Position numbers and translations under genes: made by a program
Assembly (NCBI GenBank): GCA_021432655.1
Contig: MU271250.1
Location: 1 to 64,000 of the forward strand
Reading direction: 5' to 3'
From: Atractiella rhizophila
Taxonomy: Eukaryota
DNA: 64,000 nt
The notes under the pieces: model-generated
The model's database searches: none
What the model was told of the DNA's origin: nothing
Seen by the model: the letters and a program-made list of their open reading frames with translations, nothing else
Shown: positions 1 to 50,942 of the stretch, in pieces
How the letters are laid out: each line of letters begins with the position of its first letter
Numbering within the stretch: the stretch's first letter is position 1

Positions 1-1773
1 GGCAACGAACGGGAGGACGCACGTCCTGAGGATTTTGAGACTCTAAGCCGGCTAAAAAGAGACATCGAGGGAAGATATGATATGAAGGATCCGAGCCGCA
101 TTGAACGATTCTCGCTGCAGCGGTCACGATTTTCGAACTATGAACAGATGCCGGCCGAATGTTAAGAATACGGGACAAATTGATAACGAGAGCGTTGAAG
201 GTGACAGATCTGTGGATGTGATTGAGGAGATCAGTGGATAGAACGATGACGGGGACGTTGGGGATGTCATAGAACTGTTCAAGCTCGTTTCCATCGAGTG
301 TGTCCTTGAAACCGAGTATTGTTTGCAGAAGGTTTTTGCCTCCTTGCATGACCGAGTCAAACTGCTCTGCATTGGGAAAGGCACGAAGGTTTTGGAGTTC
401 CCGGTCTAGCATGATGACTTGAGCAGTGAATTGATATAAACTGGCCTGGAATCAAAACCGCTTCTCGCCTGAGAGAAGCGATGGGTACGCACTGCAACCA
501 TCCAACCGACTCAGCTGGAACGTTCAGGAAAGGATCCTCTCGCGTTGCAGTCCCAAAGCTGGGCTGCACAATCCAAAATGTGAGCCTAGGAGCCCTAGCT
601 CCAAAGAAACCAGAGGCGAGGCAAATGCGAGACAACACGTTGACGCAGCGTTGACTCGTAAGTGACAAAGTGCTAAAACTGTGGCCTGTTGAAATAAGCG
701 CTTCCTGCGCCATGTCGAAAGTGAGATCCAGCGCTTGAGGTGTCGTACCATTGGTGGTCTCCCACAAAGCGTAGAGGACCAAAGTTGGCAAAACGAGATC
801 GACGTTTAGATGACTGTCAGGTTCCCATGGATACTTCAGCAACATTAAGGATCGTTGGTGCTTGGAATGGGCCAGACTGAGAAGATCTGGATTATCTGTC
901 CGCCGGCTTAGGTGAAGAGCTGAAAAGGCGAGGACGCCTACGTATGCAGGATGAGCTAAGGGACAAGGACACGCCATGATCACGCATGCGACTTACCGCT
1001 GTAAAGAGGAGGGCAGAATAAGGCTGTACTGAATAATGTGAGGAAGAAATTGGGCTGAACGGCTTCAATTGCATTTGCCGTTGGGGATATAATGTCGAGG
1101 AAATGTCGAACCAAGTGCGCATCTTGTATCAAAAGCTGAATCGGCTCTTGTTCCAGAACTGGGCGATTCTTCGGCCTGGCATCGAACGCGGGGCTATACA
1201 TCAGGGGAGGAAGTGGGCGAGCAGGTTGACTTGCTGTGGATTCATCCAAGAAACGAGAAGGGTGAGGGAGATGGTGTTGGTCTGTCGACGGTAGAACAGA
1301 CGTCATCGATTGGCGAACGAAACTTGGAACTGGAAGTCCAAGCTCTTTTGACGACGAAGCAGCGTATGGCATGTCGGGATGGGCGATAGGAGGGAGTGAT
1401 GAAGGTCCGATATTGACAAACTGCATAGTCGGAGACGAGCCTGTCTGAGGAGAGGCTGGTTGAGATATTGGGTGGTCTGGAGATCCCCCATCTGAACCTT
1501 CCGCCGCGGCTGGATAAACACAATTGAGGTAAAGTCGTTCACAATTGGCGCATAAAGGCTTCTCTTCGCCGCATTTAACACGTCGCTGCCTGCAGGTCAA
1601 GCAACCTTTGGAAAAAATGAGTGACACAGCGAGAATCAGTCATGTCACGAACCCATCCTGCTTCGCGAGAAACGGGGCTTAGAGCCCCTTCTCGATGAGA
1701 CGGTGGCTCCTCTCCTATTGTTTCCGCCACCCGTTCCTCCGCCACCATCGTTTGCAGACGAGGGCACAAACAT
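1..1773 (-). CDS. Zn(II)2Cys6 fungal transcription factor, multi-exon, 3' end probably outside the window
   Basis: ATG at 1773. Exon 1 reads MFVPSS...KPRFSRSRMG and a short GT-AG intron joins it to CLTCRQRRVKCGEEKPLCANCERLYLNC, a six-Cys binuclear cluster. Downstream ORFs 357-983 and below continue on the minus strand. Confidence 0.82.
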
Positions 1774-2573: not shown

Positions 2574-5124
2574 GTGCTACAACTGAATGAGCACATCAAT
2601 GTTTCTCAGGGGTTTGACTCCGCCATCTTTGCTGATCTGCTTAATCGAGTTGTTGTTGAAGAAGATCTTCCCTTCTCGATTGTGGACAGTCCAGCCTTTC
2701 AAGAACACCTCATCTACCTCCAATGGACACTGCCTTCTGCCAAAGAAATACGGCTTACAGACCTTACGAAAGGCGGACTGCAATTTGTGGAAGAATCTGG
2801 TAAAAGTCCGAAGAAGAAGATGGAGATACCAAGTCATAAGGTGCTGAAGGAGCAAATACATGCGTATGCAGAAAGAAGCAATGAGAAGCTTGCGCAAACT
2901 CTGAAGGTCTGTCTACTCTTTGGTTATCAATGTGTTTCACTGATGTGTGATAAGGAATCTGGATCCACAGTTCACCTCTCGCTTGACAACTGGACTTCCG
3001 AAAACCATTATGTATTCCTCTGTCTTATCGGTCAATTCATCAACAGCGACTGTGAACTGGTGGAGGTTGTGCTGGGATTTGAAGAGCTTATCAGAGCTCA
3101 TTCAGGAGAGAATATGGCGGATGTGATTATGAAGGTGGTCGATAAATTTGGATTGGCGAATTTGTTCAGCCTCTGCTTTACTAGTTGTGTTCACTTACTA
3201 ACAACCTAAGTTATAGATTGGGTGCTTTACCACGGTTGGCGCTTCCAACAACAAGACAACATTAAGCGGTATCAAACAGCGGCTAAAGAAAAGAAATATT
3301 GCATGCCTCATATCATTCATCTGGCCGTTATCGCCCTGCTGGACTTCTTGAACGTTTGGCCAAAGCCTTCAGCTCCAATCATGAAACCTCCCACCATGCC
3401 TCTTGTCACAAATACGAAGCATTCTAAACTTGATACTTCACTTCCGACAACTTTAGCTTCGACCACCTTCACTAAGGATGCATTGTACCAAGAGTGCATG
3501 ACGGAGGATCCTACAGTCACACAAGACAATGCTGCACAACTAGGTGAGGAGGAATTGAATGAAGTAGAACTGGATTTGAACACAGTCAATGGAGCGATAC
3601 CAAAGGTATGCTTGTTGCTTCTATTGATGCTGCTGTACTTTCTCAATCGTCTGACAGCTTCGAGCCATCATCAAACACGTTCGTGGCTCTCCTCAACGTC
3701 AAAAGAGCTGGTTAGATCTTTTGGAGGATGCTTTGAAGACCTACGAGAGCCTTTCCGATGAGTCCCTCCGCATGCTCATCCTTGACGTTCAGACACGGTG
3801 GGGATCAACCCACGACATGCTGGACCTTGGAATTCGATACAAGGATGTCATCAAAACTTACTCAGATCGCCATGAGCTTCCGTTCATGCTGCATCTGAGT
3901 GAGAAGGAGTGGAATTCAGTTGAACAGGCGCGTCTCCTACTCTTAACATTTCTACATGCCAGATGTTCTAATTCTGACTACTGCTCAGGTGTGCAAATGG
4001 CTCGCGGTTTTCCGACAAGCGACATATGACATGTCGATGAGCCAGACATCTTGTCTCTCTCAAACACTCGGAGTATACCATTCTCTGCTCGGATTTCTGA
4101 AGGGAGAGATCTCGAAGCTTACGGACACAGCTGTGGATAAGGAATATCGCCAGGCTCTTCTCGACTGTTATTACAAGTTGAGTGACTACCATTATCGCTC
4201 AGATCTCTCTCCTTATTATGTATATGCAATTAGTAAGTTCTTTCTTATAACCACCAGCACCTATGACTGACAAAATTTGCGAAATAGTCTGTGATCCTCG
4301 TCTCGGTGTGTCATTCCTCAACTCCTCTGTATTTGACTTGGAACGGGACGAGATTGAAGAACACAAATCAAATTTCATCGACCTCTTTCAAGATCACTAC
4401 TACGAAGCTCCCCACACAACAGTTCAACCCATCCCAACCCAGGCAAAGCTGTCACGGGTGAATCCGAACCTGACGGCCGATTATCTCGCATCTATTGGTC
4501 ATGGTCCAAAAACAGGAGCGGATGACGTTGGAGCGATGAAGGAAATCAACTACCTCTTCAAGCATGCACCACTGGCTTGGGGAGTGGATCCACTTACCTT
4601 TTGGAAGCACGAGTCGAAGCACAACTTGCGCAACTTGTCTCGTCTGGCTCGAGATATTCTGGCTATTCAGGGTATATGTCTTTCCAAAGTGTCCTCACTT
4701 GTTTTCAGGTTTTGATTGTTATAGGTTGTGCTGTGGGAGTCGAGCACATCTTCTCTGGAGCTCGTGATACCATAGGTATTCGCCGTCACCGTCTAGATCC
4801 TGAGAGTATACGTGATCTTATCATGCTCAAGACCACATTGCGCTTGCAACGGAAATCTCTTCTTACAGAGTTGCAGAAGGAGCTGAAGACATTGGATGAT
4901 GGCATTGCAGAGCGGGAGGCTCAGAAGAGATGAAATTGTTACACCTAAGGCTGTGACAAAATTGCTATGCCATATAACCCGTAATCCGTCATATTCTCCC
5001 GTTTTCCGCCGTGCCCGTACGTATCTGACAAACAAAATTTATTACGGTACGATACGAGCCGATAGAGGGCATGTACCGTCGGAAGTGGTGCTGAGACGAT
5101 GATACGGTACGATAGCCATCCCTA
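2574..5124 (+). mobile_element. Decayed, 5'-truncated hAT DNA transposon with an intron-containing transposase (about 2574-4933)
   Basis: hAT motifs HLSLDNWTS, HSGENMA, CMPHIIHL (CxxH), LDVQTRWGST and the dimerisation domain DPLTFWK...LSRLARDILAI...VEHIFS. The second catalytic Asp appears replaced (TTVGASNN). Confidence 0.88.
5101..5124 (-). repeat. Probable right TIR of the hAT element (TAGGGATGGCTATCG...)
   Basis: The reverse complement begins TAGGGATG, like Ac-type ends. Subterminal TACGGTACGATA copies lie at about 5043 and 5103. No left TIR was found. Confidence 0.55.
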
Positions 5125-8100
5125 GTGAGGAGTCTGTCCAGAGTGGTGATTTTGATCTCTGAAATGTATGCGTTTTGCGTCTCCGTATTAGCGGCAAATT
5201 GCCGGGCGGCGACAGATGTAAATTTGTCGTAGTGGCAAAAGGGATCGTAGTGAGTGGGGAGAACAATGGCAAAGAGGGTGATGCAGGACTCACACTCCCC
5301 TGTTTAGGGGAGGACCCTCAGGCGTTCCTCCCACTAGCTACCCAAGCTTATTTTGGAGCTCGCAACCAAACAGGCCTGGGCCACGTGCTCGTGGACACAA
5401 CGCGCAGTATAACGGGTCGGCGATTTGCGTGCTCGTCGCCGGTCTGTCTTCTTTGTTGGAGAATGTGTTGTCGAGCGAACAAGGATGGGGAAACAAAAGG
5501 TAAAACTAAAATAGGAAACAATCATCATCAAAACCAAAACAGAGTGTAGGATGTGGGGAAGTCGTTGTGTACCTCGTAATTGAGGGATTTTTGAAGTTTG
5601 ACCGGTGTTGTTTTGGTGCAGTAAGCAACCGTTTGTGAAAATGGGGTGAGTAACTCACCGACAAACTGGTCGCCGATCTGTCCGTTGAGGAACAGACCGG
5701 CGCCTCGCCTAGACCTATGTTCAACAATGTGACTAGGGATTCACCCAGTGAGGCGTGTAGAGGAGTAGGCCCTCTTAAAGTGAGGAGGAGGGGACCTCGC
5801 AATTGAGGACAATTTTCGTAAATGCGACATTGGTGATGGCGCAAGAACGCAATGAGCATTCGTCTTTGACAGGCGACGAATGGACTCACCAACGACCAAG
5901 TCGCCGACTTGGTCTTGACCCAAGTATCAAAAACTAGGATTTCACCCGGCAAGGCATATAGGGGCGTTGGACCCCTTAAAGTGAGGAAGACCCTTCAGCA
6001 TGTTTTCGTCGAAGGTTACGAAAACGCGCATTTGGGCGATTTTTAACAGAGTTTGGTGTGGAATCGGGATGAACTGCAAGAGGATGTGCAGTGTGATAGT
6101 CTTTTATAGCATCTTGTGAATTTTCCAAATCTGCAATGTTGATCCACTCGTCTTCAGATGGTGAATACCCTTTGTATCGAACGCGATATTTGAAAACTTT
6201 CTTTCGGCTACCGAACCATTTCCCATCTACAATTTTTTCTACTTCCCATTCCTCAATTCCATTCACCAATTCCGGAGGCAGTTTAGGCAACTGGACTCTG
6301 CCAAGGATGTCGTCTTTGTTGACTCTTCGTATTAGGCCCACATGGAACACTGGATGTATCTTCCATGAGGATGGCAACTCGAGTTTGAGGTTGAGGGGAC
6401 CCAAAACTGGGAGAACGCGAAAGGGGCCATGCCATTTGTCATCCAATTTTTTGACAGGTCTCGTCGATTTGATGTTTTTTGTGCTCAACCAGATGAGATC
6501 GCCGACGTGATATTCTGGCGCCGGTGCACGTTTTCTGTCATAATGTTTTGCCATGAGGTCTGCCGCTTGCTCGAGTGACGCCTGTGCTGCCCGGTCGGCG
6601 ATTTGCATCTTTTCGACGAATTGCGCTGCTGCGGGAACGTCCTCGTCGGAGATGGGTTCAAAGGCCATGCGGGGATGTTGACCGCAATCGAGCGAAAATG
6701 GAGTTACGCCCGTCGCCGAACTGACACGATTGTTGAGCGCAAATTCTGCGTTGGGGAGTCCTTCCAGCCCAATTATCCTAAAGGTGGTTGCAGAAAATGC
6801 GTAAATATTGCTCAAGTTCTTGGTTCATACGTTCAGTCTGGCCATCACTTTGCGGGTGATAGGCTGTTGATGGTGAACTTTTGATACCCAACAGGCAAAA
6901 AAGCGCGGATGTGAATTTGGACACAAACTCTTTGCCTCGATCGAAAATTGCAACATCGAAAAGTCTGTGTAACTTCCATATGTGATCGCAAAAGAGTCTT
7001 GCAAGGCCTTCTGCATCCATCATCGAATGGGTAGGATGAGATGAGTGCGTTTTGAGAGTCTGTCAACTATGACGAACGTAATGTGCCAAACCTGGCCACC
7101 AGTAGTATCTTTTCACGAGAGCTGTCGTCGATTTTACGCCTGGATGACCGGCGATTTGCGAATCGTGCAGGTCTTGCAAAATCGAGCGGCGAATTTCGTC
7201 ATCGCGGGGAATATAGAGTTTTCCGCGAAAATAGACTGCACCAGCGACTTCTTGCCACGCTCGTCGGCGAATTGCATCGACTGGCTCGTCTAGGATCTCT
7301 CTCAAAGCCTTGACTACTTGTTCTTCCCGTTCAGGCACCTTTTTCATACGTTCCAGTATACTTAACTCCGACTTTTGTCTTGTGAACGCAACCGCGCTCC
7401 CATTAGCGTTGATGGTGATACGGTCCGTATTGAAAAATCGTTCCGGGAGTAACACTACGTCGAAGTTGTCACAAATCGCCGGTTTGTGGTCCGGTCGCCG
7501 GCTAAGCGCATCTGGTTTTGCGGAATTCCGCCCAGGACGGTGTAAAAGAGTGAAGTTGAAGGATGCAAGTTCGGTAATCCAGCGTGCCTGTCGGCGATTC
7601 AACTTCTGTGGCATTCTAAAATATTCGAGATTTTTGTGATCGGTCAAGATCATAAATGGTTCCTCAGTGCCTTGAAGAAGGTGCCTCCATTCTTCCAGTC
7701 CCCACATAATCACGAACATTTCTTTGTCATAGGTGTCATAGTTCCTTTGGGCAGCATCCAGTGATTTTGATACCAAACCGAGAGGATGAAACTTCCCATC
7801 TGGCTTCATTTGTGACAAAACGGTGCCTGTCACAAAATTTGACCCATCGACTTCGAGCAGGAATCGTCCCATTTGTTCGGGATGTGCCAAAACCGGCGCC
7901 GAAGTCATAAGCTGTTTCAAAGCGGCGAACGAACGTTGTTGATCCACCCCCCAGACCCAGGAAATCTCCATTTTCGTCAGGTCGTATAAAGGTCGTGCAA
8001 TGTGACTGAATCTGTCGCAAAAGCGGCGATAGAAATTAGCGAAACCGAGGAACATTTGGACTTCCTTCTTGTTTTTCGGTTCCGGCTAATCCATTACACC

Positions 8101-9621
8101 TGCAACTTTTACTGGATCTGGTTTGATCCCCCTGTTGGTAATGATCAATCCTAAATACTCAACTTCGCTCTGACACCAAACACATTTCTGTAAGTTAACA
8201 TAAAGCCCATTTTCACGTAAAATTTGACAAACTTGTCGAACACTTTGCCAGTGTTCTTCTTCTGTCTCTGTCGCAATCAGGATATCATCGATGTATATGA
8301 AAATGAATGCAGCTGCGATCATCGCACGGAAAATAGAGTTCAGGAAAGCTTGAAAAGTCGCCGGTGAGTTGCAGAGACCGAAATACATCACCAATGGTTC
8401 GAAAAGCCCGCGATTTGTGCGAAACGCCGCTTTGTGTTAGTCTCCTTCTTTAATGCGAACGTTGTTGAATCCTTTTCTCAGATCGATCTTGCTGAAAAAC
8501 TTCTTACCAGAGACCATGGAAAAGAGGTCAGCTTGAATGGGGAGTGAGGTCTTGTCTTTGACTGTGGCTTCGTTTAGTTTCTGATAATCGAAAGGGGATG
8601 AAGTTTGGATGAGTCTTTTTTGTGCGTGAAAAAAACGGAAGCACCATGCTCGCCTGTGCTAGGACGTATACGACCAGCGCTCAGTTCAGCGTCAATAAAT
8701 TGGTCGAGCGCCACTTGTTCGTCTCTTTTCAAGGGGTAGACGGGACCAGCATATGGTTGAGCTTCTGGCTTGAGGTCGATAGCATGATCCCAAGGTCGTC
8801 GAGGAAGGAGTGAAGTTTTGAATTTTTCGTCGTCGAAAATATCCGCAAAATCGGCGATTTGTTTTGGTATCTCGACAACCTCTTTTAGTCTCATCGCCGC
8901 TACGTCTTTTGCCAGTTTCTGCGATTTCGTCATAGTGGCCCGTATCGAGGTAGACGATGATGGGAAGTGTTCGCGAGTGGTAGACACGTCATCTGCATTG
9001 CAGCTGGTAGGGCAGCCAGAGAACTCAACTTTCCCTGAGTCCCAGTTGATCTCTGGGTTATGGTGTCTTAGCCAGCGTGTCCTAAAATCATGTCAACAGT
9101 TCCCCACTCTGCCACAGCGAATTGCCAAACTTCGTGATGGGCGGCGATCGAAATGGGTAAATAAGCGACAGAATGGATGGAACCCCCCTGATTGAGGGAT
9201 CCGTCGATATTGTAAACGGGCACTGGGGAAGGGAGTTGAGTGACGGGTAGGTTGTATGTGGAAACAAGTTTTGGGGAGATAAAGGAAGTGGTGGCCCCAC
9301 TGTCGACGAGCGCTGATATGGCGTGTCGGCGATGGGAATGTGGATGATGGAAAGCGGTTCTGAGCTTCGTCTTCGAACTGACAAGGGATGCTGTTGTCGA
9401 GCGTAAATGGACTTTGTCGTACATTTTTGCGACTTCTGCGCATCTCTGTCGCCACGAGGGAAAAGACAATTTCCGGAATGGGGAGTCTTGCTCAGATGAG
9501 GGGAATAATGTGTTGAGTGGCGTTTTGTTGGAAGTGATTTTGGATGAAGTAAATGAATTGCAAGCCGGCGATGGGGACACTTTAACTCCACCCACCGTGG
9601 TCCTAAAAATCCTCTTCTAGG

Positions 9622-10914
9622 TCATCTGATTGGGTAACATTCTTTTTCGACGATTTGGTCGGCACTTTGCGCAAATTGTCGCTCTCGGTGCTTCATCTTT
9701 GAATCAAAATATTCTCCTTGAGCTCGGAGATACTGTTCTTTGTTCATGATCGTCCGACATTCTCTTTCCCAGTGGCCCATCTTTTGGCATCGTCTGCAAC
9801 AGGGAGGCCTAGATTTTGTCGCGTCAACCTCCATGTCGTCGGGGTCTTTGGCTCTGTGTGCGTGGGTAGCGGTGTTTGGTGATGAATTGGCGACCGTTGA
9901 CAAAGTGGCGCTCGGTCGATACGATACGGGTGTTCTGCTCTCTCTGTGTTTTGTTGGTCTTGAGCTGTTCTTTTTGGCACAAAACATATTCTGGGGTCCG
10001 TCCTTCGCTGATGGGATGTTTCGAAAGAAGGTTGAATGAGCAGATTCTTCTGCATCAATTCGTCGAGCCTTTTCTTTCCATTCTTCGAGCGATTTTGGGA
10101 ACTCTCCTTGGGTTACTTTGAGATGTAGGGTAGGATTGAGTCCTCGTTTGAAGAAGAAAGTAAGAGCTTCATCACCAAAGTCAGCCTGATTTGCCAGTTC
10201 TTCAAACTTGATGATGTAGGTTTCTAGGTTCCCCTTTTGTTGGAGGGAAGATATTTTTGTTTGTACAATGAGTTTGTGGTCTGTCTTGCAGAAGCGCGAT
10301 TTGAACTCCGACAAAAATTGCTCCCACAAAATTTGTTCCTTGTTTTCGACAAGTCGGCGCAAAATCCCAGCGGCGAATTTTTCCGCATCTCCTTCTTTCA
10401 TGTAAGAAAGGGTAAATAGGATTTTCAAATTTTCGGTCGAAAATTGGCCTGGAACAGTAGACGTGTAGACGTAAATTTCGCGTAAAAATGTCGGAGCTGT
10501 GTTGGGTACTCCTTTGAAGATCGCGGGCGGGGCAAGTTTGATACCTGCATATGGTGCAACTTGGGCAGTTTGGGGTATAGAGGGAGAAGAGTAAGCTTGA
10601 GGTATTGGGTCCGTTCGCGATAAAAAGGGGGAAGTGGTTCCACTATCTCTAGGAGGGGGTAGTCTGAAATCTAGCAATTGTAAAATTAGGTCATTCGTGT
10701 TTTGGACGTCGGACCTCCGTTGCGCAATTTCGTTCACATTCTGGGAGGTTTGCGCATTTTGTTGGTTGAAACTTGTTATGATATCTTGTTCGAGTTTTCT
10801 GAATTGTTTTTCAGTAGTGAGATGTAGAGTTTGGAACATCCTTTCTAGGTGCTGGATACGTTCTTCGCTCGTCGGCGGTTTGCGCGTTTCCATGTCTCCC
10901 CAAACCTCCGACAT
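9622..10914 (-). CDS. Gypsy Gag with CCHC zinc knuckle
   Basis: 430-aa ORF containing CRRCQKMGHWEREC. A GGATTTTT possible slippery site lies at about 9605-9612, before pol. Confidence 0.88.
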   Translation of the reverse strand: MSEVWGDMETRKPPTSEERIQHLERMFQTLHLTTEKQFRKLEQDIITSFNQQNAQTSQNVNEIAQRRSDVQNTNDLILQLLDFRLPPPRDSGTTSPFLSRTDPIPQAYSSPSIPQTAQVAPYAGIKLAPPAIFKGVPNTAPTFLREIYVYTSTVPGQFSTENLKILFTLSYMKEGDAEKFAAGILRRLVENKEQILWEQFLSEFKSRFCKTDHKLIVQTKISSLQQKGNLETYIIKFEELANQADFGDEALTFFFKRGLNPTLHLKVTQGEFPKSLEEWKEKARRIDAEESAHSTFFRNIPSAKDGPQNMFCAKKNSSRPTKHRESRTPVSYRPSATLSTVANSSPNTATHAHRAKDPDDMEVDATKSRPPCCRRCQKMGHWERECRTIMNKEQYLRAQGEYFDSKMKHRERQFAQSADQIVEKECYPIR

Positions 10915-10942
10915 TTTTAAGTTTGATTTTTTGAAAGGGACG

Positions 10943-10952
10943 AGAGTATTCT
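10943..10952 (-). promoter_or_regulatory. Non-tRNA primer-binding site (self-priming type)
   Basis: AGAATACTCT, 2 nt after the LTR, is the exact complement of AGAGTATTCT at 11069-11078, which lies about 27 nt downstream of TATATA. Confidence 0.7.
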
Positions 10953-10954
10953 TC

Positions 10955-11445
10955 TGTTAGGGCTGACAGTATGTGCGGTCGCCGATGGGCGATGCGTCTG
11001 TAGTGGAGGTAAACCTAAGTGAATAGTATGGCATGAGAAGACTAACCTGTAGTGGAGGTAAACCTAAGAGAATACTCTGAGATTACCACCACTACATCTC
11101 GATGTATATATACCATATGTAAAGGCACTGCCATAAACTGTAACATACATTTCTTGAAAAATGTAAGATAGCTAGATCAGGAAAGCAATAAAGGGAATAC
11201 TCGGAAATAAGACATACTCAGCAGTACAAGTGAGAAAGGATAATAAGGCAATAATGGCGACGGTGCAGACCGGCGAAATGTATGAGGTTAGCTGAGCGGC
11301 GATTCGTGTGAGATGGGGGAAGGCGGCGGTCAGCGCAAACATGCGCAAAGCGGCGACAGGTAGGCACGTGATCCTACGACGTACTAAAGTAGGTCATGTG
11401 ACATCAAATGGTGCATTTCGGTAATGCGTAGGGGCAAGCCTGACA
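10955..11445 (-). repeat. Gypsy 5' LTR (491 bp, TG...CA)
   Basis: Sense strand TGTCAGGC...CCCTAACA. Homologous copies start at 23781, 28785, 33898, 34468 and 49355. Confidence 0.95.
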
Positions 11446-23321: not shown

Positions 23322-24033
23322 TCATAATTCTGAGTGCCTCATCATCAAAGTCTGCCTGATTTGCCTACTCCTCAAACTTGATGATGTTGGACTCCAGGTT
23401 GCCCTTCTGTTGCAGGGAAGACAGTTTTGTTTGCGCAATAAGTTTGTGGTCAGTTTTGCAAAAACATGATCTGAACTCCGACAAAAATTGCTCCCACAAA
23501 ATCTCTTCCTCATTTCGACAAGTCGGCGCAGTATCCCAGCGGCGAATTTTTCAGTGTCTCCTTCTTTCATATACAATAGAGTAAATAAAATTTTTGACTT
23601 TTCTGAAGGGAACTGTCACGAGGTCTTGTTTGATTTTTTTGAACCGCTTTTCGGTTGTGTAGAGTTTGGAACATTCTTTCTAAGTGCAAGATGCATTCTT
23701 TGCTCGTCGGCAGTTCATGCATTTCCATATCTCCTCAAACCTCCGACATTTTTTTCTGAAAAGTAAAGGGAGTATTCTTCTGTTAGGGCTGACACTATGT
23801 GCGGTCGCCGATTGGCGATGCGTCTGTAGTGGAGGTAAACCTAAGTGAATAGTATGGCATGAGAAGACTAACCTGTAGTGGAGGTAAACCTAAGTGAATA
23901 GTATGGCATGAGAAGACTAACCTGTAGTGGAGGTAAACCTAAGAGAATACTCTGAGGTCACCACCACTACATCTCGATGTATATATACATATGTAAGGGC
24001 ACTGCCATAAACTGTAACATATGTTGCTTGAAA
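23322..24033 (-). mobile_element. Gypsy fragment: truncated LTR (23781-24033), PBS and internally deleted gag
   Basis: High similarity to 10150-11160. YMKEGDTEKFAAGILRRLVE. The LTR has three 22-nt repeats, at 23824, 23873 and 23922. Confidence 0.9.
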
Positions 24034-26641
24034 TAACTCGTAAAGGGGTTTGATCGAGTTGTCGAATCGAGGTTGGAAAGTGTGGTGGAATGGAGAGCAG
24101 CAACATTCGCCGCATAGTCAACAGGTAGGAAACATTCAGCAATTGAAGCAGGGGATTCAAGAAAACGAAGAAAATTTTGAGGAAGGTTGAAAGGAACAAA
24201 TTTTGATATGGTAAGAGGAAGGCAATTTCGAATCCAAGACAAATTAGAAGAAAATTTCGGCTGATCATATACGGATGGAGTAGAAATTGTTAAACTAGGC
24301 AGAAGAGAATTATTAGTAGAAGCAAGGAGTGCAGAGGGAGAAGTGGAGGGCAGGATCTTTCCCGGGGTTGTATCGTGTTCTTCCATAAAATTGAGGTATT
24401 CCTGGTCTGAAATTTCTTGCAATGCCCTGTCAAAAGACATGTCGCCATTCGGGGCATACTGTACATGGGTGTGAAAATGAGGATCATTTGAAGGCACTGG
24501 GTTGTCATGGGAGAATAGTGGAAGAAAGAGTGGGTGGATGTCAAGGTCTGGATGCTGAGCCGGGAGAGGAACAGGCCAGCGTCGTTGTTCATAAGCAACC
24601 TGGACGTAGGATGGCCAGTAGGACAGGTCACCATTGTGGATGATCTTTCCATCAAGGTTTCCATCGTACCGCCCATCAGGTCCAGGGCTAAAAATGTCGT
24701 TGGCCGCGCGGGGAATGCCGTCACTATTGAGTTCGTTTGGAGATGCAAAAGCCGGGCTGGCAATCAACACCGAAGGGTGGACATATTGAGATCGACCGGA
24801 GGAGTTAGGTTGAAGAGTAATACCCATCGCCTCGAAGGCAGCATCACCGGTTTTCTCTCGCTGTATAACTGGTACTCGGCAACTGGAAGATATGTGTCCT
24901 ATACCAAGGCAGTATACACATTGATTTGGCTGTACAATAAAATGACCCGACGGCGAGATAGATCCTGGCCAGGAGTCAATCCCGTCGTAGTCCCACGCCC
25001 GGCGGCCAAATACACGGGTCCCTGGATGACCGTAAACTCGCCTTGCGAGATGATACGTCTTCCCAAAGTGTCGCAAAGTAGGAGGCCGAACCGACCAAGG
25101 TCGGTTATACATCGGAGCGACTGGGGGGGTAGAAACGAGGATACGTGGTAGTGAAGTAGTTGCCAAGGAGGGTCGATAAGGAGGTGTAGATGGGTGCCTC
25201 AATGTGGGAGTCTGGCTTCGCAGTGTTGCAGATGACGCAGGTGGAAAATGACGAGCAGAGGATGGGGAAAAACGTATCGGCTGGGAGGAAGGTGGCATTG
25301 ACAAAGATCGAGACTGAGAAGGAAATACAGCATATACACTTGTGTCTCTCTAAAAATGCATGGGGATAGCAGGGTCTCCATGCTCTAGAACAGTGTTCGT
25401 TACATCTTCCGCTTTCAGTTTCTGAAAAAGATCGTTTAGATCATTCCTGGTGACATTCTTTGGATTGAGTGCAAACTTCCTCCATTCAGGTTCAAGGAGG
25501 TTAACGAAGAGGAGGAAGCGGACTGCATCGGACAGAGTGTAAGCAGAGTCTGCAGAGAGTAGTTCCGCATAAATCGCGTTCCATTTGGTGATGAACTGCG
25601 CCAAGGACGTGCATCCAGATCCACTTTGATAAAATGTGATCAATTTGGCTATAATCGTGTGACCCATAACGGCCTGCATTGTGCTGTATAGTGCCTGCAT
25701 CCTTGCGACGATGGAGCTAGCAACACGCTTTTCTTCTTCAGAAAGCTGATTCACAGCCGTGAGGTCCAAATTCGCAAGGACTATAGCCACAGCCTTGGCG
25801 TTCCCAGCTTCCCAACATTCCATAGCGTCCTCCCATTGTGACAAATTGCTGAAAGTGTTACGCAAAGGTTGAGTACGGCGAAAGTCCTCTGTCCCAACCA
25901 GCTCGTCCAATGCATAGCGGTAAACCATACGGACCTGGAGACCCATTCTCATCGCCGCCCACCAACTGGTAAAACCCACCCTTAGAATAGAAGGCACTCC
26001 ATCAATAATAAGTCCCGTCGTCCCAGCCGAAGATTCCATATCGATTGTCCGAAAAGAGTGTGGAGGTGATGAGGTGTTTGATGAAGGGATTAAAAACTCG
26101 GTCGTATTTGATAGGGCAGTGGTGCATGTAGGGGAGGATCTCTGTCATCAAATGGTGTGAGGTATCGAGAAGACATGTACAATCAGTACACTTCGTAGTG
26201 TTGTTACAAGAATTCGCAATGGGCAGCGTTAAACCCAATACTGGACAATCGAGGAGATACTTGTGGCTAACAGATGACTCTCACTACCATGTTAGCTGAT
26301 CCCCAGCGAATATGAGATGGTGGAAAACACTGGGAAATCAGGGCGGAGAAAAACCTAACCCTATGTACATACTGTGAGCTGCAGTACCATTTTGCTCCAA
26401 AATAGTTGAATTTAGCAGAGCTGCTAGAATTCGATTGAGGAAAAGGTAAAATTGAGTGGAATGCGTCGGTGAGGTTCCGAGGAGGATCCTGGAAGTGTCT
26501 GGTCGTTACCAAACCTGCAACGCCAGTAGCTAGCATGCTCGTCGCAAAAAAAGGTGACTGTACCCCATCATTGAAAAGAATTAGCAATATCCAGGTACAA
26601 CGGAAAAGTAACCACAAGGAACACGGACAGTAGTTTCCACA
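24034..26641 (-). mobile_element. Ty1/Copia fragment: 5' LTR (about 26290-26641), iMet-type PBS and gag region, truncated before the protease
   Basis: PBS TGGTAGTGAGAG at 26278-26289. Gag is similar to 57415-58704 (IDGVPSILRVGFTSWW vs IDNVPPISRVGFERWW). Knuckle CVYCLGIGHISSSC. The outer LTR boundary is uncertain. Confidence 0.8.
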
Positions 26642-26699
26642 AATCCACGAATTCCAGTAGTCACCAGTTCTCGAGGTCCGTCGCGACGTGCTTTCGTAT

Positions 26700-27511
26700 G
26701 GATGCCAGCCCTGACTGGTGGCGCATTGACACCAACATCAACATCGACGCCACCGTCTTGGTGGCTTCCTCTTCTTCCTATGCTTCGGTTTCTTTGATTT
26801 GGACTTACGTGGATTAGATCCTGCTTTCAGCTGAACGTTCAATCCACGATGCTTGGAACGGCGCTCAATTCAATTCAGTTCGCGCATGCCCCCCGACAAA
26901 ATGCATCGGATCGAATGAACGAATGGAGAGCGGGGGAAAGCAAGACCCACTTCTTCCATGCATAACCGGGACTGGGAGTAGGTCGCACCATCGAAGTTTA
27001 TAAAACTGTGATGATTTTTCCAGTGTTGACTACAACGCCATTTAGCTTAGCTTTCCACATCGACCTTGAAGAGCGGGAGAGAGAGATAGACCAGTGGTGC
27101 GGATCGTAGTAGATGCTGCGCCATTCCGGACCAATATATGAGCCATAAACTGTAACGTCATGCACGGGCCAGAGGTAGCGCAGCAGGGATAACGAAATCG
27201 TGGTGGTGGCGACCGTAGGTACCAACCTGATTAATGAGGAAATCCAGCATAGTAAGGAACATGGAAGTCGAACTTCTTCAACTGATCTGCATGTATGACA
27301 GCTGGCATCGTCGGTTTCTGATTCGAGGTGTAGCCAAGTCGGGCCTTCGGAATGGAACCCAACTTGTGGTTCTCTGCAGTATCAAATTCAGTGGCTTCGC
27401 TTCGACAGGAGATCCTTGCTCTTTCGGAGGCGGAAGAAGTTGGCAGAGCCGCCCCAACTGAAGAAGAAGCGAAGAGGGAGAGGAGGAGGAGGAGCTAAAT
27501 AGTTCCAGCAT
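26700..27511 (-). pseudogene. Possible decayed secreted-protein gene
   Basis: A signal-peptide-like LLLLLSLFASSSVGAALP is out of frame with the ATG at 27511. Confidence 0.25.
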
Positions 27512-28560: not shown

Positions 28561-29116
28561 TGCCTCCGGCAGCCAAGCACAGACCCATCATACATACTCT
28601 ACTGTGTTCAAAAAACAATGAAAGCTGAGTGGTCTCCAAGGTACGAGGAGAACCACTTCAGCTTTTGACTATATATACTGTTAGGAACATGCTGAGAGAT
28701 AATCAGTGATTGAGTACTCATAACACTTCCTTGTAAACTACATTATCTGTTTGCTTTCTTCTCCTTGCTTTGTTTTGACCAATATGTCAGGCTTGCCCTA
28801 CACATTACCGAAATACACCATCCGAAGTCACGTGATCCACTTTACCACGTCATGGCATCACGTGCCTCCCAATCGCTGCTTTGCTGCCTGCGCTGTTCGC
28901 CGCTTTCCCCTTTCTCACACGAATCGCCGCTCAGCAAACCTTATACATTTCTCCGGTCTGCGCCGTCTCCATTTTCGCCTTATTGTCCTTTCTCACTGGT
29001 ACTACCCAGTATATCCTATTTCCGAGTATTCCCTTTATTGCTTTCCGGATCTAGCTATCTTATGTGTTTCAAGAAACATATGTTACAGTTTATGGCAGTG
29101 CCTTTACATATGTATA

Positions 29117-29399
29117 TCCTATACTCTAAGGTTCATCAGTTCTTGACATGAGTCATAAGACACACTTTTGAGCCCTCACACCTCCCTCACCATACACAAT
29201 AGAATGAAATGTATTGTATCATCATATCCCACATGCTTGCCCCTTTCTGAACCTGCAAGGAAATTTTATTCTGAAAGGGTTGAAAAATGTGTTTTGTACT
29301 GGACTCGAACCCTTACAACGGTCACAGTAGGGTTCAAGGGGCCATGCCCCTTGCGAGTGGGTTGGGGGGCCTGAGGGACAAAGGCTGTTCACACACTTG
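29117..29399 (+). mobile_element. Non-autonomous mini-Helitron (283 bp)
   Basis: Inserted between A and T of the LTR TATA with no TSD, and removing it restores CATATGTATATATACATC. It has 5' TC, 3' CTTG (a CTRR variant) and GC-rich hairpins near the 3' end. Confidence 0.7.
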
Positions 29400-29486
29400 T
29401 ATACATCAAGATGTAGTGGTGGTGACCTCAGAGTATTCTCTTAGGTTTACCTCCACTACAGGTTAGTCTTCTCATGCCATACTATT

Positions 29487-29775
29487 TGTGAGAGAGGGAC
29501 ATACCACATGACTCCGTTTTACTTTGTCATTTTCCTTCCCTTCGCTCGTTTCTCTCGCTTTGTTCATGTTCATTCCCTTCGCTCGTTCCTCTCGTTTCGT
29601 TTCCCTCTCTCTTTCTTGATCTCCACTCTTCGGCACGTGTACATAGGGTTAGGACCATCGCCAACCTGATTCCCCAGCGTTTCCACCATCTCATTTCGCT
29701 GGGGATCAGGTACGTAGCTTCATTTCATGTCATTGAGCGTTTCCACCATCTCATTTCGCTGGGGATCAGCTCACA
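29487..29775 (+). mobile_element. Copia-type solo LTR (289 bp)
   Basis: TGTGAG...CTCACA ends and TSD CTATT. The 3' part matches the LTR of the Copia fragment at 26290. Confidence 0.88.
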
Positions 29776-33897: not shown

Positions 33898-34343
33898 TGT
33901 TAGGGCTGACACTATGTGCGGTCGCCGACGGACGATGCATCTGTAGTGGAGATAAACCTAAGAGCATGATATGACATGAAGACTAACCTGTAGTGGACAT
34001 AAACCTAAACTCTGAGGTCACCTCCACTACTCTCTGATCTATATATACAAGCGGAATAACACTGCCACAGAGCATAGAGGAGAGCAGATGAAACATGTAA
34101 GAGAACTAAAAGGGGAAGTGACAGTGGGATTACGTGGAGTTAATAAGAGGAGGATAGGCACAATTGGGCTAAGTGGTGATGTAGGTGCAAATGGGCGATG
34201 GGAGATGCAGAGTGGTGACGGTTCGCAGATTTGTATAGAATGCAAATGGGCGAACAGGCACCGATTCATGGGGAACGCAAATGGGCGATAGAAGATGCAA
34301 TCCGGCGAACGGGCGCTGATTTGCATAAGATGCAAACCTGACA
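33898..34343 (-). mobile_element. Gypsy solo LTR, divergent subfamily (shared R/U5, different U3)
   Basis: TG...CA ends and TSD CACAG. U3 contains TGCAAATGGGCGA repeats. Confidence 0.9.
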
Positions 34344-34467: not shown

Positions 34468-34956
34468 TGTTAGGGCTGACACTATGTGCGGTCGCCAATA
34501 GGCGATGCGTCTGTAGTGGAGGTAAACCTAAGTGAATAGTATGGCATGAGGAGACTAACCTGTAGTGGAGGTAAACCTAAGAGAATACTCTGAGGTCACC
34601 ACCACTACATCTCGATGTATATATACATATGTAAGGGCACTGCCATAAACTGTAACATACGTTTCTTGAAACATGTAAGATAGCTAGATCAGGAAAGCAA
34701 CAAAGGAAATACTCGGAATTAAGGCATACTGAGCAGTACAAGTGAGAAAGGACAATAAAGCAATAATAGAGACGGTGCAGACCGGCGAAATGTGTAAGGT
34801 TTGCTGAGCGGCGATTCATGTGAGATAGGGAAAGCGGCGATCAGCGCGAACGTGAGCAAAGCGGCGATGGGGAGGCACGTGATCCTTCGACGTGATGAAA
34901 TAGGTCACGTGACTTCAAATGGTGCGTTTCGATAATGCGTAGGGGCAAGCCTGACA
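34468..34956 (-). mobile_element. Gypsy solo LTR (489 bp)
   Basis: TG...CA ends and TSD GCCTA. Collinear with 10955-11445. Confidence 0.95.
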
Positions 34957-49354: not shown

Positions 49355-50942
49355 TGTCAGGCTTGCCCCTACGTATTACCGAAATGCACCATCTGAAGTC
49401 ACATGACCCACTCTACCACAGCATGGCATCACGTGCCTACCTGTCACCGCTTTGCTCATACCCACGCTGTCCGCCGCTTTCCCCTTTCTCATACGAATCG
49501 CCGCTCAACAAACCTTATACATTTCGCTGGTCTGCACCATCCCCATTTTCGCCTTATCATCCTTTCTCACTAGTACTGCTCAGTATATCTTATTTCCGAG
49601 TATTCCCTTTATTGCTTTCCTGTTCTAGTTATCTTACATGTTCAAGAAACATACATTACAGTTTATGGCAGTGCCTTTACATATGTATATATACATCAAG
49701 ATGTAGTGATGGTGACCTTAGAGTATTCTCTTAGGTTTACCTCCACTACAGACGCATCGCCCATCAGCGACTGCACATAGTGACAGCCCTAACAGAAGAA
49801 TTCTCTTTCTCCTTTTCAAAATCAAACTTAAAAATGTTGGAGGTTTGGGGAGATATGGAAATGCGCGAACTGCCAACAAGTGAAGAACGCATCCATCACT
49901 TGGAAAAGATGTTCAAGACCTCATAACAAGTTTCAACCAACAAAATATGCCAACCTCCCAGAATGCGAACGAGATTGCGCAACTGAGGTCCGACGTTCAA
50001 AACATAAACGACCGAATTTTACATTTACTGGACTCCAGACTACCCCCTCCTAGGGACAGTGGAACCACTTCCCCCTTTATATCACGAACAGACCCAATAC
50101 CTCAAACTTACTCTCCCCATCTATACCTCAAACTGCCCAAGCAGCACCATATGCAGGTATCACACTTGCTCCACCTTCAATCTTCAAAGGAGTGCCTAAC
50201 ACAGCTCTGACATTTTTATGGGAAATTTACGTCTACACCTCTACTGTTCTAGGCCAATTCCCGACCAAAAAATCAAAAATCCTATTTACCCTCTCTTACA
50301 TGAAAGAAGGCAATGCGGAAAATTTCCCCGCTGGGATTTTGCGCCGGCTTGTCAAAAACAAGGAACAAATTTCGTGGGAACAATTGTTGTCGGAGTTCAA
50401 TCACACTTCTGCAAAACAGACCACAAACTTATTGCACAGACGAAACTGTCTTCCCTCCAGCAAAAGGGAATCCTAGAATCCTACATCATCAAGTTTGAAG
50501 AATTGGCAAACCAGACTGACTTTGATGATGAGGCTCTTATTTTCTTCTAGAAACGAGGACTCAATCCTGCCCTACATCTTAAAGTAACCCAAGGAGAGTT
50601 CCCGAAATCGCTAGAAGAATGGAAAGAAAAACCTCAGCAAATTGATGCGGAAGAATCTGCACATTCAACCTTCTTTCAAAACATCCCACTGGTGAAAGAC
50701 GGGCCCCAAAATACGTTTTCCGCAAAGAGAGACAGCTCGAAATTGACAAAACACAGAGAGAGCAGAACACCCATATTGTATCGACCAAGTGCCGCTTTGC
50801 CGCCAATGGCCAATCCGTCACCAAACGTTGCTACACACTCACAGAGCCAAAGACCCTGATGACATGGAAGGTGATGCAACAAAATCTAGACCCCCCCATT
50901 GCAGGCCATGCCAAAAGATGGGACACCGGGAAAGAGATTGTC
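49355..50942 (+). mobile_element. Gypsy fragment: LTR (49355-49794), decayed PBS and frameshifted gag
   Basis: Same family as 9622-11445. This LTR has only one 22-nt repeat (49730-49751). Confidence 0.92.

What the first reader, a model, noticed from the sequence alone, without database searches (positions are those of the whole stretch)
11047..11097. U3 anti-repeat arm able to mask Rep1 only at the RNA 3' end (Gypsy)
TGTAGTGGTGGTRAYCT, just upstream of the inferred start site, is complementary to AGGTTTACCTCCACTACA up to the donor junction. As U3 sequence it is transcribed only from the 3' LTR. It would therefore hinder splicing there and hide Rep1 from strand transfer while leaving the 5' copy free. 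The pairing is kept in the divergent 33898 subfamily (GTAGTGGAGGTGACCT) despite a replaced U3.
Basis: partly seen in the sequence, partly recalled or inferred. Interest (0 to 1): 0.8.

Follow-up and report, generated by a model that had tools for sequence, protein, structure and literature searches.

The report
Hairpin locking a retrotransposon's self-primer
A short inverted repeat at the promoter end of a mushroom-type Gypsy retrotransposon's terminal repeat is real, and on folding predictions it most likely decides which RNA end can prime the element's own reverse transcription rather than controlling splicing; this is untested.

Summary
On the minus strand, a 17-nt arm (11096-11080) pairs imperfectly with Rep1 (11065-11048). 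Together they form a 49-nt hairpin of -24.5 kcal/mol (z = -6.2), present in 6 of 6 LTR copies in the window.

The element is a Tf1/sushi-like chromovirus. Its LTR runs 11445-10955, and the ends are fixed by three solo LTRs with 5-bp target duplications.

The hairpin loop holds AGAGTATTCT. This 10-mer is perfectly complementary to the sequence 2 nt after the LTR, which is the signature of Tf1-type self-priming.

In silico, RNA starting at the primer pairs primer with PBS (probability 0.69-0.94 in 3 of 3 copies). Adding the arm drops this to 0.00. My reading is therefore an "anti-primer lock" acting wherever U3 is present: the RNA 3' end, read-through RNA and plus-strand strong-stop DNA.

Evidence limits:
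- There is no covariation (0 of 20 pairs).
- No start site, poly(A) site or splicing data could be obtained.
- No relatives' DNA could be fetched.
- The splicing reading is weak: the 49-nt unit lacks a CTRAY branch site, and its loss looks the same as repeat slippage.

Moderate interest; a new variant of a known mechanism.

The parts
10955..11445 (-). 5' LTR of Gypsy/chromovirus copy A (TGTCAGG...CCCTAACA)
   Evidence: Self-BLAST ends at 11445 and 10955. The same termini occur in three solo LTRs with 5-bp target duplications. Many contigs diverge at 10955 and 11445.
11104..11112 (-). TATA box (TATATATAC)
   Evidence: Read directly. Kept in 5 of 6 copies; copy C is rearranged here. Function is inferred.
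11080..11096 (-). Arm TGTAGTGGTGGTAATCT, 5' half of the hairpin; inferred last 17 nt of U3
   Evidence: Copy A's T at 11082 is a rare variant: the other base is read in 316015 of 317065 depth units in X1.
11066..11079 (-). Hairpin loop CAGAGTATTCTCTT, holding the putative self-primer AGAGTATTCT (11078-11069) and the inferred start site A-11078
   Evidence: 10 nt, 100% complementary to 10943-10952 (pair I8). The 10-mer occurs 6 times in the window: 5 LTR copies and the PBS of A. About 0.15 are expected by chance.
11048..11065 (-). Rep1 copy 1 AGGTTTACCTCCACTACA, 3' half of the hairpin
11017..11047 (-). Spacer of the 49-nt tandem unit. It begins G|GTTAGT (donor-like) and ends CATACTATTCACTT, which matches the loop at 11 of 14 bases.
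   Evidence: The 49-nt period is reported in copy B. No CTRAY motif on direct reading.
10999..11016 (-). Rep1 copy 2
   Evidence: The arm pairs with copy 1, not copy 2: probability 0.97 against 0.00.
10975..10995 (-). U5 stem-loop UCGCC-CAUC-GGCGA, resembling the U5-IR stem-loop
   Evidence: Present in the minimum-energy folds
10943..10952 (-). Primer-binding site AGAATACTCT, 2 nt after the LTR end
   Evidence: Pairs with the primer at probability 0.94 when the arm is absent.
10912..10914 (-). First ATG of the gag frame (frame 10956-9622)
   Evidence: Retrotrans_gag and Ty3_capsid Pfam hits.
23955..23971 (-). Arm of copy B (three Rep1 units; U3 cut off at 24033)
29412..29428 (+). Arm of copy C (solo LTR, target duplication CAATA, about 280-nt insertion inside the repeat unit)
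34015..34031 (-). Arm of the divergent copy D (solo LTR, target duplication CTGTG, different upstream U3, 6-nt deletion in the loop)
34593..34609 (-). Arm of copy E (solo LTR, target duplication TAGGC)
49702..49718 (+). Arm of copy F (one Rep1 unit only; 5' LTR with gag)

Best explanation
**What it is.** The arm is the U3-side half of a 49-nt imperfect palindrome that straddles the U3/R border of a Tf1/sushi-type, self-priming chromovirus LTR. The centre of the palindrome is the element's self-primer, AGAGUAUUCU.

**RNA begun at the LTR's own start site (inferred, A-11078).** This RNA lacks the arm. Its leader folds so that:
- the primer pairs with the PBS just past the LTR;
- UUAGG (the 5' edge of Rep1) pairs with CCUAA at the LTR end;
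- CACUA of Rep1 pairs with UAGUG in U5;
- these helices enclose a stem-loop resembling the U5-IR stem-loop.

This is the self-priming fold.

**Where U3 is present.** This means the 3' end of the genomic RNA, read-through transcripts, and plus-strand strong-stop DNA. There the arm captures Rep1 in a stronger local stem of 16 pairs plus a 4-bp cap. The hairpin shuts the primer copy into its tip and makes primer:PBS pairing impossible.

**Proposed role.** The arm acts as an anti-primer lock. Only the authentic 5' end can self-prime. The 3' copy of the primer sequence cannot compete for the PBS or be cut. The 3' PBS tail of strong-stop DNA cannot snap back on the R copy of the primer.

**Shown versus inferred.** Shown: the sequences, the complementarities, and the predicted mutually exclusive folds. 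Inferred: the start site, the extent of R, and every functional consequence.
For: **Element type.** Pfam finds gag, protease, RNase H, integrase zinc domain, Tf2-1 SH3 and chromodomain on the minus strand from 10956 to 5976. The nearest named relatives, about 50% identical, are agaricomycete proteins annotated "Tf2 155 kDa type 1-like".

**Self-priming signature.** A 10-nt perfect complement joins 11078-11069 to 10952-10943, 2 nt past the LTR. The 10-mer occurs only in LTR copies and at the PBS: 6 matches against 0.15 expected. Self-priming from the mRNA 5' end is the stated common feature of Tf1/sushi elements (passages of PMC10085805, PMC4600332, PMC5341516, PMC6317226).

**Position.** The TATA box starts about 34 nt upstream of A-11078, and the -1 base is C.

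**Fold switch in RNA.** Primer:PBS probability, with shuffled values for the full U3:

| Copy | No arm | Arm present | Arm shuffled 20 times (mean) |
|---|---|---|---|
| A | 0.94 | 0.00 | 0.75 |
| B | 0.85 | 0.00 | 0.46 |
| F | 0.69 | 0.00 | 0.23 |

With the arm present, the hairpin has probability 0.85-0.99.

**Fold switch with DNA parameters.** Primer:PBS is 0.89 without U3 and 0.00 with it.

**Rep1 belongs to the 5' fold.** In the one-unit copy F, the minimum-energy fold nests primer:PBS, UUAGG:CCUAA and CACUA:UAGUG around the U5 stem-loop. The UAGUG partner is the family's majority base: copy A's C at 10969 is replaced in 356801 of 358516 depth units.

**Hairpin strength.** z = -6.24.

**Family-wide retention.** 1439 (X1) and 923 (X2) contig pieces were laid. 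Summed depth is highest from 10943 to 11089, which includes most of the arm. Of the 40 variant places shown, only one falls in the arm.
Against: **No covariation.** Of 20 pairs, 0 have changes on both sides and 3 have a broken cell. Only five distinct sequences were available.

**No special conservation.** Arm changes in single copies are about as frequent as in neighbouring bases: 5 of 17 arm positions vary among the six copies.

**Nothing mapped.** The start site and poly(A) site are unknown. If R ends before Rep1, the RNA 3' hairpin cannot form.

**A built-in cost.** The hairpin would also bury the acceptor for the minus-strand transfer.

**Weak DNA-model effect.** Shuffling the arm restores primer:PBS only to a mean of 0.13 (range 0-0.52), so other U3 sequence competes as well.

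**Limits of the method.** Thermodynamic folds ignore Gag chaperone activity and folding during transcription.

**Limits of the data.**
- X1 and X2 are one sample. They may be the source of the window itself, so they are not independent.
- 48 of 88 variant places were not shown.
- No relative from another genome could be examined.
Confidence: 0.35

Rival explanations
1. No RNA-level function. The arm is a relic of an inverted duplication of the start of R. One possible origin is snap-back synthesis at the palindromic primer sequence; another is a diverged unit of the 49-nt tandem array. It would be retained only because it fills the required TATA-to-start spacing or serves as a core-promoter DNA element.
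For: - Arm, loop and Rep1 add up to 49 nt, the same as the tandem period.
- The 14 nt before Rep1 copy 2 match the loop at 11 of 14 bases, so the hairpin region looks like unit zero of the array.
- Compensatory changes: 0 of 20 pairs.
- The arm varies about as much as its neighbours.
- It lies within the block conserved with the promoter.
Against: - A stem of about -25 kcal/mol centred exactly on the self-primer is an unlikely accident.
- It is kept in 6 of 6 copies, including one with a different upstream U3.
- It is covered at high depth across the family.
- The arm part of unit zero matches the corresponding 17 nt of unit one at only 5 of 17 bases on direct reading.
Confidence: 0.33
2. First reader's model. 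At the RNA 3' end, the U3 arm masks Rep1 up to the donor. This hinders removal of the 49-nt unit as an intron and hides Rep1 from strand transfer, while the 5' copy stays free.
For: - The stem ends one base before G|GTTAGT.
- The unit has GT..AG ends and is 49 nt long. Four short host introns inferred in the window are 50-52 nt.
- Copies carry 1, 2 or 3 units.
Against: - The unit has no CTRAY motif. Of 5 host introns inferred, 4 have one, and all 5 have A or G where the unit has T.
- The GT lies outside the stem.
- Unit loss by splicing and by slippage between the 19-nt repeats gives the same sequence, so copy F decides nothing.
- R downstream of the transfer point is inherited from the 5' copy. 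Splicing of the 3' copy would therefore leave no trace and has little selective logic (inference from the standard reverse-transcription scheme).
- Hiding the transfer acceptor is a cost.
- The poly(A) site is unknown.
Confidence: 0.08
3. Start-site switch. Transcription starts on either side of the arm. Arm-containing RNAs are locked and serve for translation. Arm-less RNAs self-prime. This would resemble alternative start-site control in Tf2.
For: - The fold switch itself.
- Tf2 activity is controlled by start-site choice relative to the self-primer (passages of PMC5341516).
Against: The TATA box ends only 8 nt before the arm, so a start upstream of the arm would need another promoter. There are no RNA data.
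Confidence: 0.1
4. Cyclisation. The 3'-only arm pairs with a Rep1 copy in the 5' leader, in cis or between co-packaged RNAs. This would bring donor and acceptor together for the minus-strand transfer, as Ty1 CYC5:CYC3 or the Ty3 5'-3' bipartite PBS do.
For: - Rep1 is present in 1-3 copies per LTR, so spare partners exist.
- End-to-end contacts are needed for initiation in Ty1 and Ty3 (passages of PMC4974528).
Against: The adjacent Rep1, 14 nt away, wins completely in folds: 0.97-0.99 against 0.00 for the next copy. A distant partner is even less favoured.
Confidence: 0.06

Closest known systems
Tf1/Tf2/Tj1 self-priming leader (the three-duplex 'pretzel' of Tf1/sushi chromoviruses)
   Same: - The primer lies at the inferred mRNA 5' end and is complementary to a PBS just past the 5' LTR.
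- There are extra duplexes between PBS-adjacent sequence and LTR sequence downstream of the primer.
- A stem-loop resembling the U5-IR stem-loop is present.
- The integrase carries a chromodomain (passages of PMC10085805 and PMC4600332).
   Different: - Here a U3 segment upstream of the primer is complementary to the R segment downstream of it, so the primer sits in the loop of a hairpin that straddles the start site.
- I saw no such U3 arm in the passages read, or in searches.
- The primary Tf1 papers were not held.
- The complement is 10 nt here; 11 nt for Tf1 is my recollection.
- A 49-nt tandem repeat lies within the leader.
Ty3 5'-3' bipartite PBS and Ty1 CYC5:CYC3
   Same: Sequences present only at the 3' end of the genomic RNA take part in controlling the start of reverse transcription (passages of PMC4974528).
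   Different: Those contacts promote initiation by bridging the two RNA ends, through a tRNA in Ty3. Here the predicted contact is local and inhibitory, and the primer is the RNA itself.
Retroviral end discrimination by U3 (the HIV-1 upstream poly(A) enhancer in U3, and R hairpins such as TAR and the poly(A) hairpin)
   Same: The logic is the same: R is identical at both RNA ends, and U3, present only at the 3' end, makes the two copies behave differently. This comparison is recalled knowledge; no paper on it was read here.
   Different: The process is different (poly(A) site use rather than priming). Those hairpins lie wholly within R, whereas this one spans U3 and R.
Alternative start-site control of Tf2
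   Same: Whether the transcript carries a usable self-primer decides whether it can be reverse transcribed (passages of PMC5341516).
   Different: In Tf2 the inactive RNA starts downstream and lacks the primer. Here an RNA carrying extra upstream sequence would keep the primer but lock it.

Membership tests
Tf1/sushi group of Ty3/Gypsy chromoviruses | Gypsy gene order with a chromodomain at the integrase C-terminus | tested here: met
   Pfam finds gag, protease, RT_RNaseH, Integrase_H2C2, SH3_Tf2-1 and Chromo, in that order, on the minus strand from 10956 to 5976. The frames are broken, so this is a degenerate copy.
Tf1/sushi group of Ty3/Gypsy chromoviruses | No tRNA-type PBS; instead, a PBS just past the 5' LTR that is complementary to LTR sequence at the mRNA 5' end | tested here: met
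   A 10-nt perfect complement joins 11078-11069 to 10952-10943, 2 nt after the LTR. The sequence after the LTR does not begin with TGG. That the complement sits at the true mRNA 5' end is inferred only.
Tf1/sushi group of Ty3/Gypsy chromoviruses | Multi-duplex leader fold around the primer:PBS helix | tested here: inconclusive
   Nested helices appear in the minimum-energy fold of the one-unit copy F. In A and B the enforced version lies within 0.8-2.3 kcal/mol of the minimum. These are predictions, and the topology was not compared with Tf1 itself.
Tf1/sushi group of Ty3/Gypsy chromoviruses | Placement in the clade on an RT/integrase tree | not tested
   Only annotation names of the nearest relatives ("Tf2 155 kDa type 1-like", about 50% identity) and the SH3_Tf2-1 Pfam hit. 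No tree was built.
Spliceosomal intron (the 49-nt unit 11046-10998) | GT..AG ends and a length in the host range | tested here: met
   The unit is GTTAGT...ACAG and 49 nt long. Four short TCP-1 introns inferred in the window are 50-52 nt.
Spliceosomal intron (the 49-nt unit 11046-10998) | Host-like 5' site and a CTRAY branch motif | tested here: not met
   The unit has no CTRAY, and T is its third base. Of 5 inferred host introns, 4 have CTRAY and all 5 have A or G there. The sample is small and these introns are inferred from frames and Pfam coordinates, not from RNA.
Spliceosomal intron (the 49-nt unit 11046-10998) | Spliced RNA observed | not testable with these tools
   No RNA run was available to lay on the stretch. 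DNA copies with fewer units exist anyway.
Conserved RNA structure (arm:Rep1 hairpin) | Compensatory base changes | tested here: not met
   Of 20 pairs, 0 have changes on both sides. Five distinct sequences of one family were compared.

The most novel reading that the evidence does not exclude
Self-priming retroelements carry an inherent hazard: the primer sequence is repeated at the RNA 3' end and inside plus-strand strong-stop DNA. This family would solve it with a U3-encoded anti-primer arm. The arm makes the two R copies structurally different, so that only RNA begun at the element's own start site can prime. It would also prevent a suicidal snap-back of strong-stop DNA. That would be a previously undescribed cis-regulatory layer of Tf1-type reverse transcription.
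Probability: 0.3. Interest if true: 0.6.

Novelty: new variant of a known kind. Interest (0 to 1): 0.4.

Why it matters
Self-priming is the defining trick of the Tf1/sushi retrotransposons of fungi, vertebrates and some plants. How the element stops the second copy of its primer sequence from interfering has not, to my knowledge, been addressed.

A U3 arm that locks the primer wherever U3 is present would give a simple, testable answer. It would also extend the retroviral principle that U3 tells the two ends apart from polyadenylation to priming.

If it is only a relic, the finding still documents a very abundant agaricomycete LTR family with a clear self-priming signature and a variable 49-nt repeat in its leader.

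Tried and rejected
**Whole genome.** None is held for this window.

**RNA evidence.** The look-up of sequencing runs listed no RNA holder. It returned only two DNA contig sets of one sample and one metagenome with a 0.05 share. Start site, poly(A) site and splicing could therefore not be tested. The metagenome run X3 laid nothing.

**Relatives' DNA.**
It returned 118 loci, and none matched the element by BLAST.
- Viral contigs gave no relative of the RNase H-integrase protein: four pattern hits, none confirmed. It gave 0 hits for the arm motif.
- Genome contigs gave one chance hit in a bacterial MAG.

**Earlier findings.** Nothing by place, words or sequence. One search did not complete.

**marY1 identity.** A published marY1 LTR primer (PMC3755187, passages) is absent from the window at up to 3 mismatches. 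The second primer was not tried.

**3' LTR of copy A.** Not found in the window, even with word size 7.

**Primary Tf1 papers.** Levin 1995 and 1996 and Lin & Levin 1998 are not held. What I say of them comes from citing papers or from recall.

**Rejected ideas.**
- That the arm pairs with the second Rep1 copy: probability 0.00.
- That conservation in the divergent copy shows selection for pairing.

Full report
**1. What is at the coordinates**

On the minus strand the sequence runs as follows:
- TATATATAC at 11112-11104, then ATCGAGA;
- the arm TGTAGTGGTGGTAATCT at 11096-11080;
- CAGAGTATTCTCTT at 11079-11066;
- Rep1 AGGTTTACCTCCACTACA at 11065-11048;
- G|GTTAGT and a 30-nt spacer;
- a second Rep1 at 11016-10999.

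The arm motif occurs six times in the window and Rep1 twelve times. All of them lie in six copies of one LTR: A 11096, B 23971, C 29412, D 34031, E 34609 and F 49702.

The arm is an imperfect reverse complement of Rep1: 8 bp, a U.U mismatch, 5 bp, a one-base bulge, then 3 bp. The 14-nt loop adds its own AGAG/CUCU mini-stem.
- The 49-nt hairpin folds at -24.5 kcal/mol, with z = -6.24. None of 200 shuffles folds as well.
- Across the six copies the energy is -19.8 to -27.2 kcal/mol. In each copy, 0 of 1000 arm-only shuffles reach it.

**2. What the element is**

The frames downstream on the minus strand carry Retrotrans_gag/Ty3_capsid, aspartic protease, RT_RNaseH, Integrase_H2C2, SH3_Tf2-1 and Chromo. 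This is a Ty3/Gypsy chromovirus, here as a degenerate copy.

Its closest named relatives are about 50% identical over the RNase H-integrase piece. They are agaricomycete proteins annotated "Tf2 155 kDa type 1-like". Other genes in the window also point to a fungus: Zn2Cys6, OPT, NACHT-WD40 and TCP-1.

The LTR is 11445-10955 (TGTCAGG...CCCTAACA).
- Self-BLAST alignments stop at these bases.
- Three other copies are solo LTRs with the same termini and 5-bp target duplications: E TAGGC, C CAATA, D CTGTG.
- In the DNA contigs of runs X1 and X2, many contigs diverge exactly at 10955 and 11445.
- No 3' LTR of copy A lies in the window.

**3. The key context: a self-primer in the hairpin loop**

The 10 nt AGAGTATTCT (11078-11069) are perfectly complementary to AGAATACTCT (10952-10943), which begins 2 nt after the LTR (pair I8).

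The 10-mer occurs six times in the window: five LTR copies and this one site. About 0.15 are expected by chance. There is no TGG-type tRNA PBS.

This is the signature of Tf1-type self-priming. According to the passages I read, it is the common feature of the Tf1/sushi group. [quoted passage not shown]

The TATA box starts about 34 nt upstream of A-11078, and the base before it is C. The start site is therefore most likely at or next to 11078, and the arm (-18 to -2) is the last part of U3. No RNA data could be had (see section 7).

**4. What the hairpin does in folds**

| Molecule modelled | Primer:PBS probability | Arm:Rep1 hairpin probability |
|---|---|---|
| RNA from 11078 to past the PBS, copy A | 0.94 | arm absent |
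| RNA with the arm, or the whole U3, copy A | 0.00 | 0.97-0.99 |
| RNA without the arm, copies B and F | 0.85 and 0.69 | arm absent |
| RNA with the arm, copies B and F | 0.00 | 0.85-0.98 |
| RNA, full U3, arm shuffled 20 times, copies A / B / F | mean 0.75 / 0.46 / 0.23 | not applicable |
| DNA model of plus-strand strong-stop DNA, no U3 | 0.89 | arm absent |
| Same DNA model, with U3 | 0.00 | 0.99 |
| Same DNA model, arm shuffled 20 times | mean 0.13 (range 0-0.52) | not applicable |

In the DNA model other U3 sequence evidently competes as well.

In the one-unit copy F the minimum-energy leader nests three helices around a U5 stem-loop: primer:PBS, UUAGG:CCUAA (the 5' edge of Rep1 with the LTR end) and CACUA:UAGUG (Rep1 with U5). 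The G that makes UAGUG is the family's majority base. Copy A's C at 10969 is replaced in 356801 of 358516 depth units.

Rep1 therefore looks like a working part of the self-priming fold, and the arm is an alternative, stronger partner for it.

**5. Most likely mechanism**

I read the arm as an anti-primer lock (confidence about 0.35).
- RNA started at the LTR's own start site lacks the arm and can fold back to prime.
- Wherever U3 precedes R, the primer copy is shut into the hairpin tip. That applies to the RNA 3' end, to read-through RNAs and to strong-stop plus DNA.

A self-priming element has a problem that tRNA-primed ones lack. Its LTR contains a complement of its own PBS. The 3' copy could therefore compete or be cut, and the 3' PBS tail of strong-stop DNA could snap back. 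Passages of PMC11042837 state that a large share of Tf1 cDNA keeps a single-stranded PBS tail. All functional steps here are inferred.

**6. Evidence against, and rivals**

There is no covariation. Of 20 pairs, 14 never vary, 3 vary on one side in a wobble-compatible way, 3 are broken in one copy, and none has changes on both sides. Only five distinct sequences were available.

In D, the arm's T-to-A change closes the U.U mismatch, while one of D's two Rep1 changes breaks a pair. D's upstream U3 really is different. Even so, the arm lies inside the TATA-to-end block that D shares, so its survival there is not special.

Arm, loop and Rep1 total 49 nt, the tandem period. The 14 nt before Rep1 copy 2 match the loop at 11 of 14 bases. 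The hairpin may therefore be a diverged unit or an inverted duplication with no RNA role (about 0.33).

- The unit lacks CTRAY and has T at the third intron base. Of 5 TCP-1 introns inferred from frames and Pfam coordinates, 4 have CTRAY and all 5 have A or G there.
- The GT is outside the stem.
- A one-unit copy is the same product whether made by splicing or by slippage between repeats.
- The sequence of R downstream of the transfer point is inherited from the 5' copy.

A start-site switch (about 0.10) and a 5'-3' cyclisation role (about 0.06) remain possible.

**7. Family-wide data and limits**

Laying the contigs of X1 and X2 placed 1439 and 923 pieces on the stretch, so the LTR family is very abundant. 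X1 and X2 are one sample, possibly the window's own source.

Summed depth is highest over 10943-11089 (R-U5 plus most of the arm) and lower over U3.

In the hairpin only two variant places are among the 40 shown:
- 11082, where copy A carries the rare base;
- 11058, Rep1 C-to-T in 208115 of 618367 depth units, which gives G.U.

48 further variant places were not shown, and contigs give no linkage between arm and Rep1. A minority of contigs diverge at 11078 and 11095, which indicates subfamilies with variant arms.

No relative's DNA from another genome could be obtained.

**8. Comparison with what is known, and novelty**

The element works like, and by the features tested belongs with, Tf1/sushi self-priming chromoviruses. 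A tree was not built.

Known uses of 3'-end-only sequence in reverse transcription are the Ty3 bipartite PBS and Ty1 CYC5:CYC3 (PMC4974528, passages). Both promote initiation rather than inhibit it. The U3-based discrimination of the two R copies in retroviral polyadenylation is recalled knowledge, not read here.

I found no description of a U3 arm bracketing a self-primer in searches or in the passages read. The primary Tf1 papers were not held, so this negative is limited.

**Verdict.** A real and statistically strong hairpin in a clear biological setting. It has a plausible new regulatory reading, but no evolutionary or RNA evidence supports that reading yet. It is a new variant of a known kind, of moderate interest.

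Noticed in passing
window 28782-29847 (+), 33898-34333 approx. (-), 34468-34957 (-): Three solo LTRs of the same family with 5-bp target-site duplications: C CAATA, D CTGTG, E TAGGC. D has a different upstream U3 that is rich in a CGCCCATTTGCA-like motif. D and E lie only about 420 nt apart, and their downstream flanks resemble each other.
   Followed up: partly
window 29487-29765 (+): Copy C carries an insertion of about 280 nt inside the 49-nt unit. It is flanked by ACTATT on both sides and contains a 37-nt tandem repeat (29522-29601). It may be a small non-autonomous element.
   Followed up: no
window 23753-24033 (-) and 23967-26737 (-): Copy B has three Rep1 units, but its U3 is cut off at 24033. 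Directly upstream lie long open frames (460, 264 and 156 aa) with no Pfam match. One of them runs into the LTR remnant. This could be a tandem or nested arrangement or an unrelated repeat.
   Followed up: no
window 5400-11445 (-): Copy A has a 5' LTR and gag-to-chromodomain frames broken by stops and frameshifts. No 3' LTR was found in the window; beyond about 5500 the sequence is unrelated.
   Followed up: partly
window 49354-50942 (+) and 52658-58716 (-): Homology of copy F (5' LTR with gag) to copy A ends at 50942. From 52658, a Ty1/Copia element lies on the opposite strand (gag_pre-integrase, rve, RVT_2).
   Followed up: no
window 29842-30762 (-): An open frame with PIF1 helicase and Pif1 2B domains lies directly after solo LTR C. 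It may be a Helitron-type or PIF1-like remnant.
   Followed up: no
window 40343-44306 (+): A fungal NLR-type gene with an NPHP3_N/NACHT domain followed by about 12 WD40 repeats.
   Followed up: no
window 59941-61939 (+): A TCP-1/CCT chaperonin gene in six exon pieces. Four inferred introns are 50-52 nt and one is 267 nt. Their 5' sites read GTRCGT or GTATCT, and most have a CTRAY branch motif. I used them as the host yardstick for the intron question.
   Followed up: partly
window 4251-4715 (+) and 980-1639 (-): A hAT dimerisation-domain fragment and a Zn2Cys6 transcription-factor fragment.
   Followed up: no
window 31619-31768: A 66-nt tandem repeat of 2.3 copies and 78% match, of unknown origin.
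   Followed up: no
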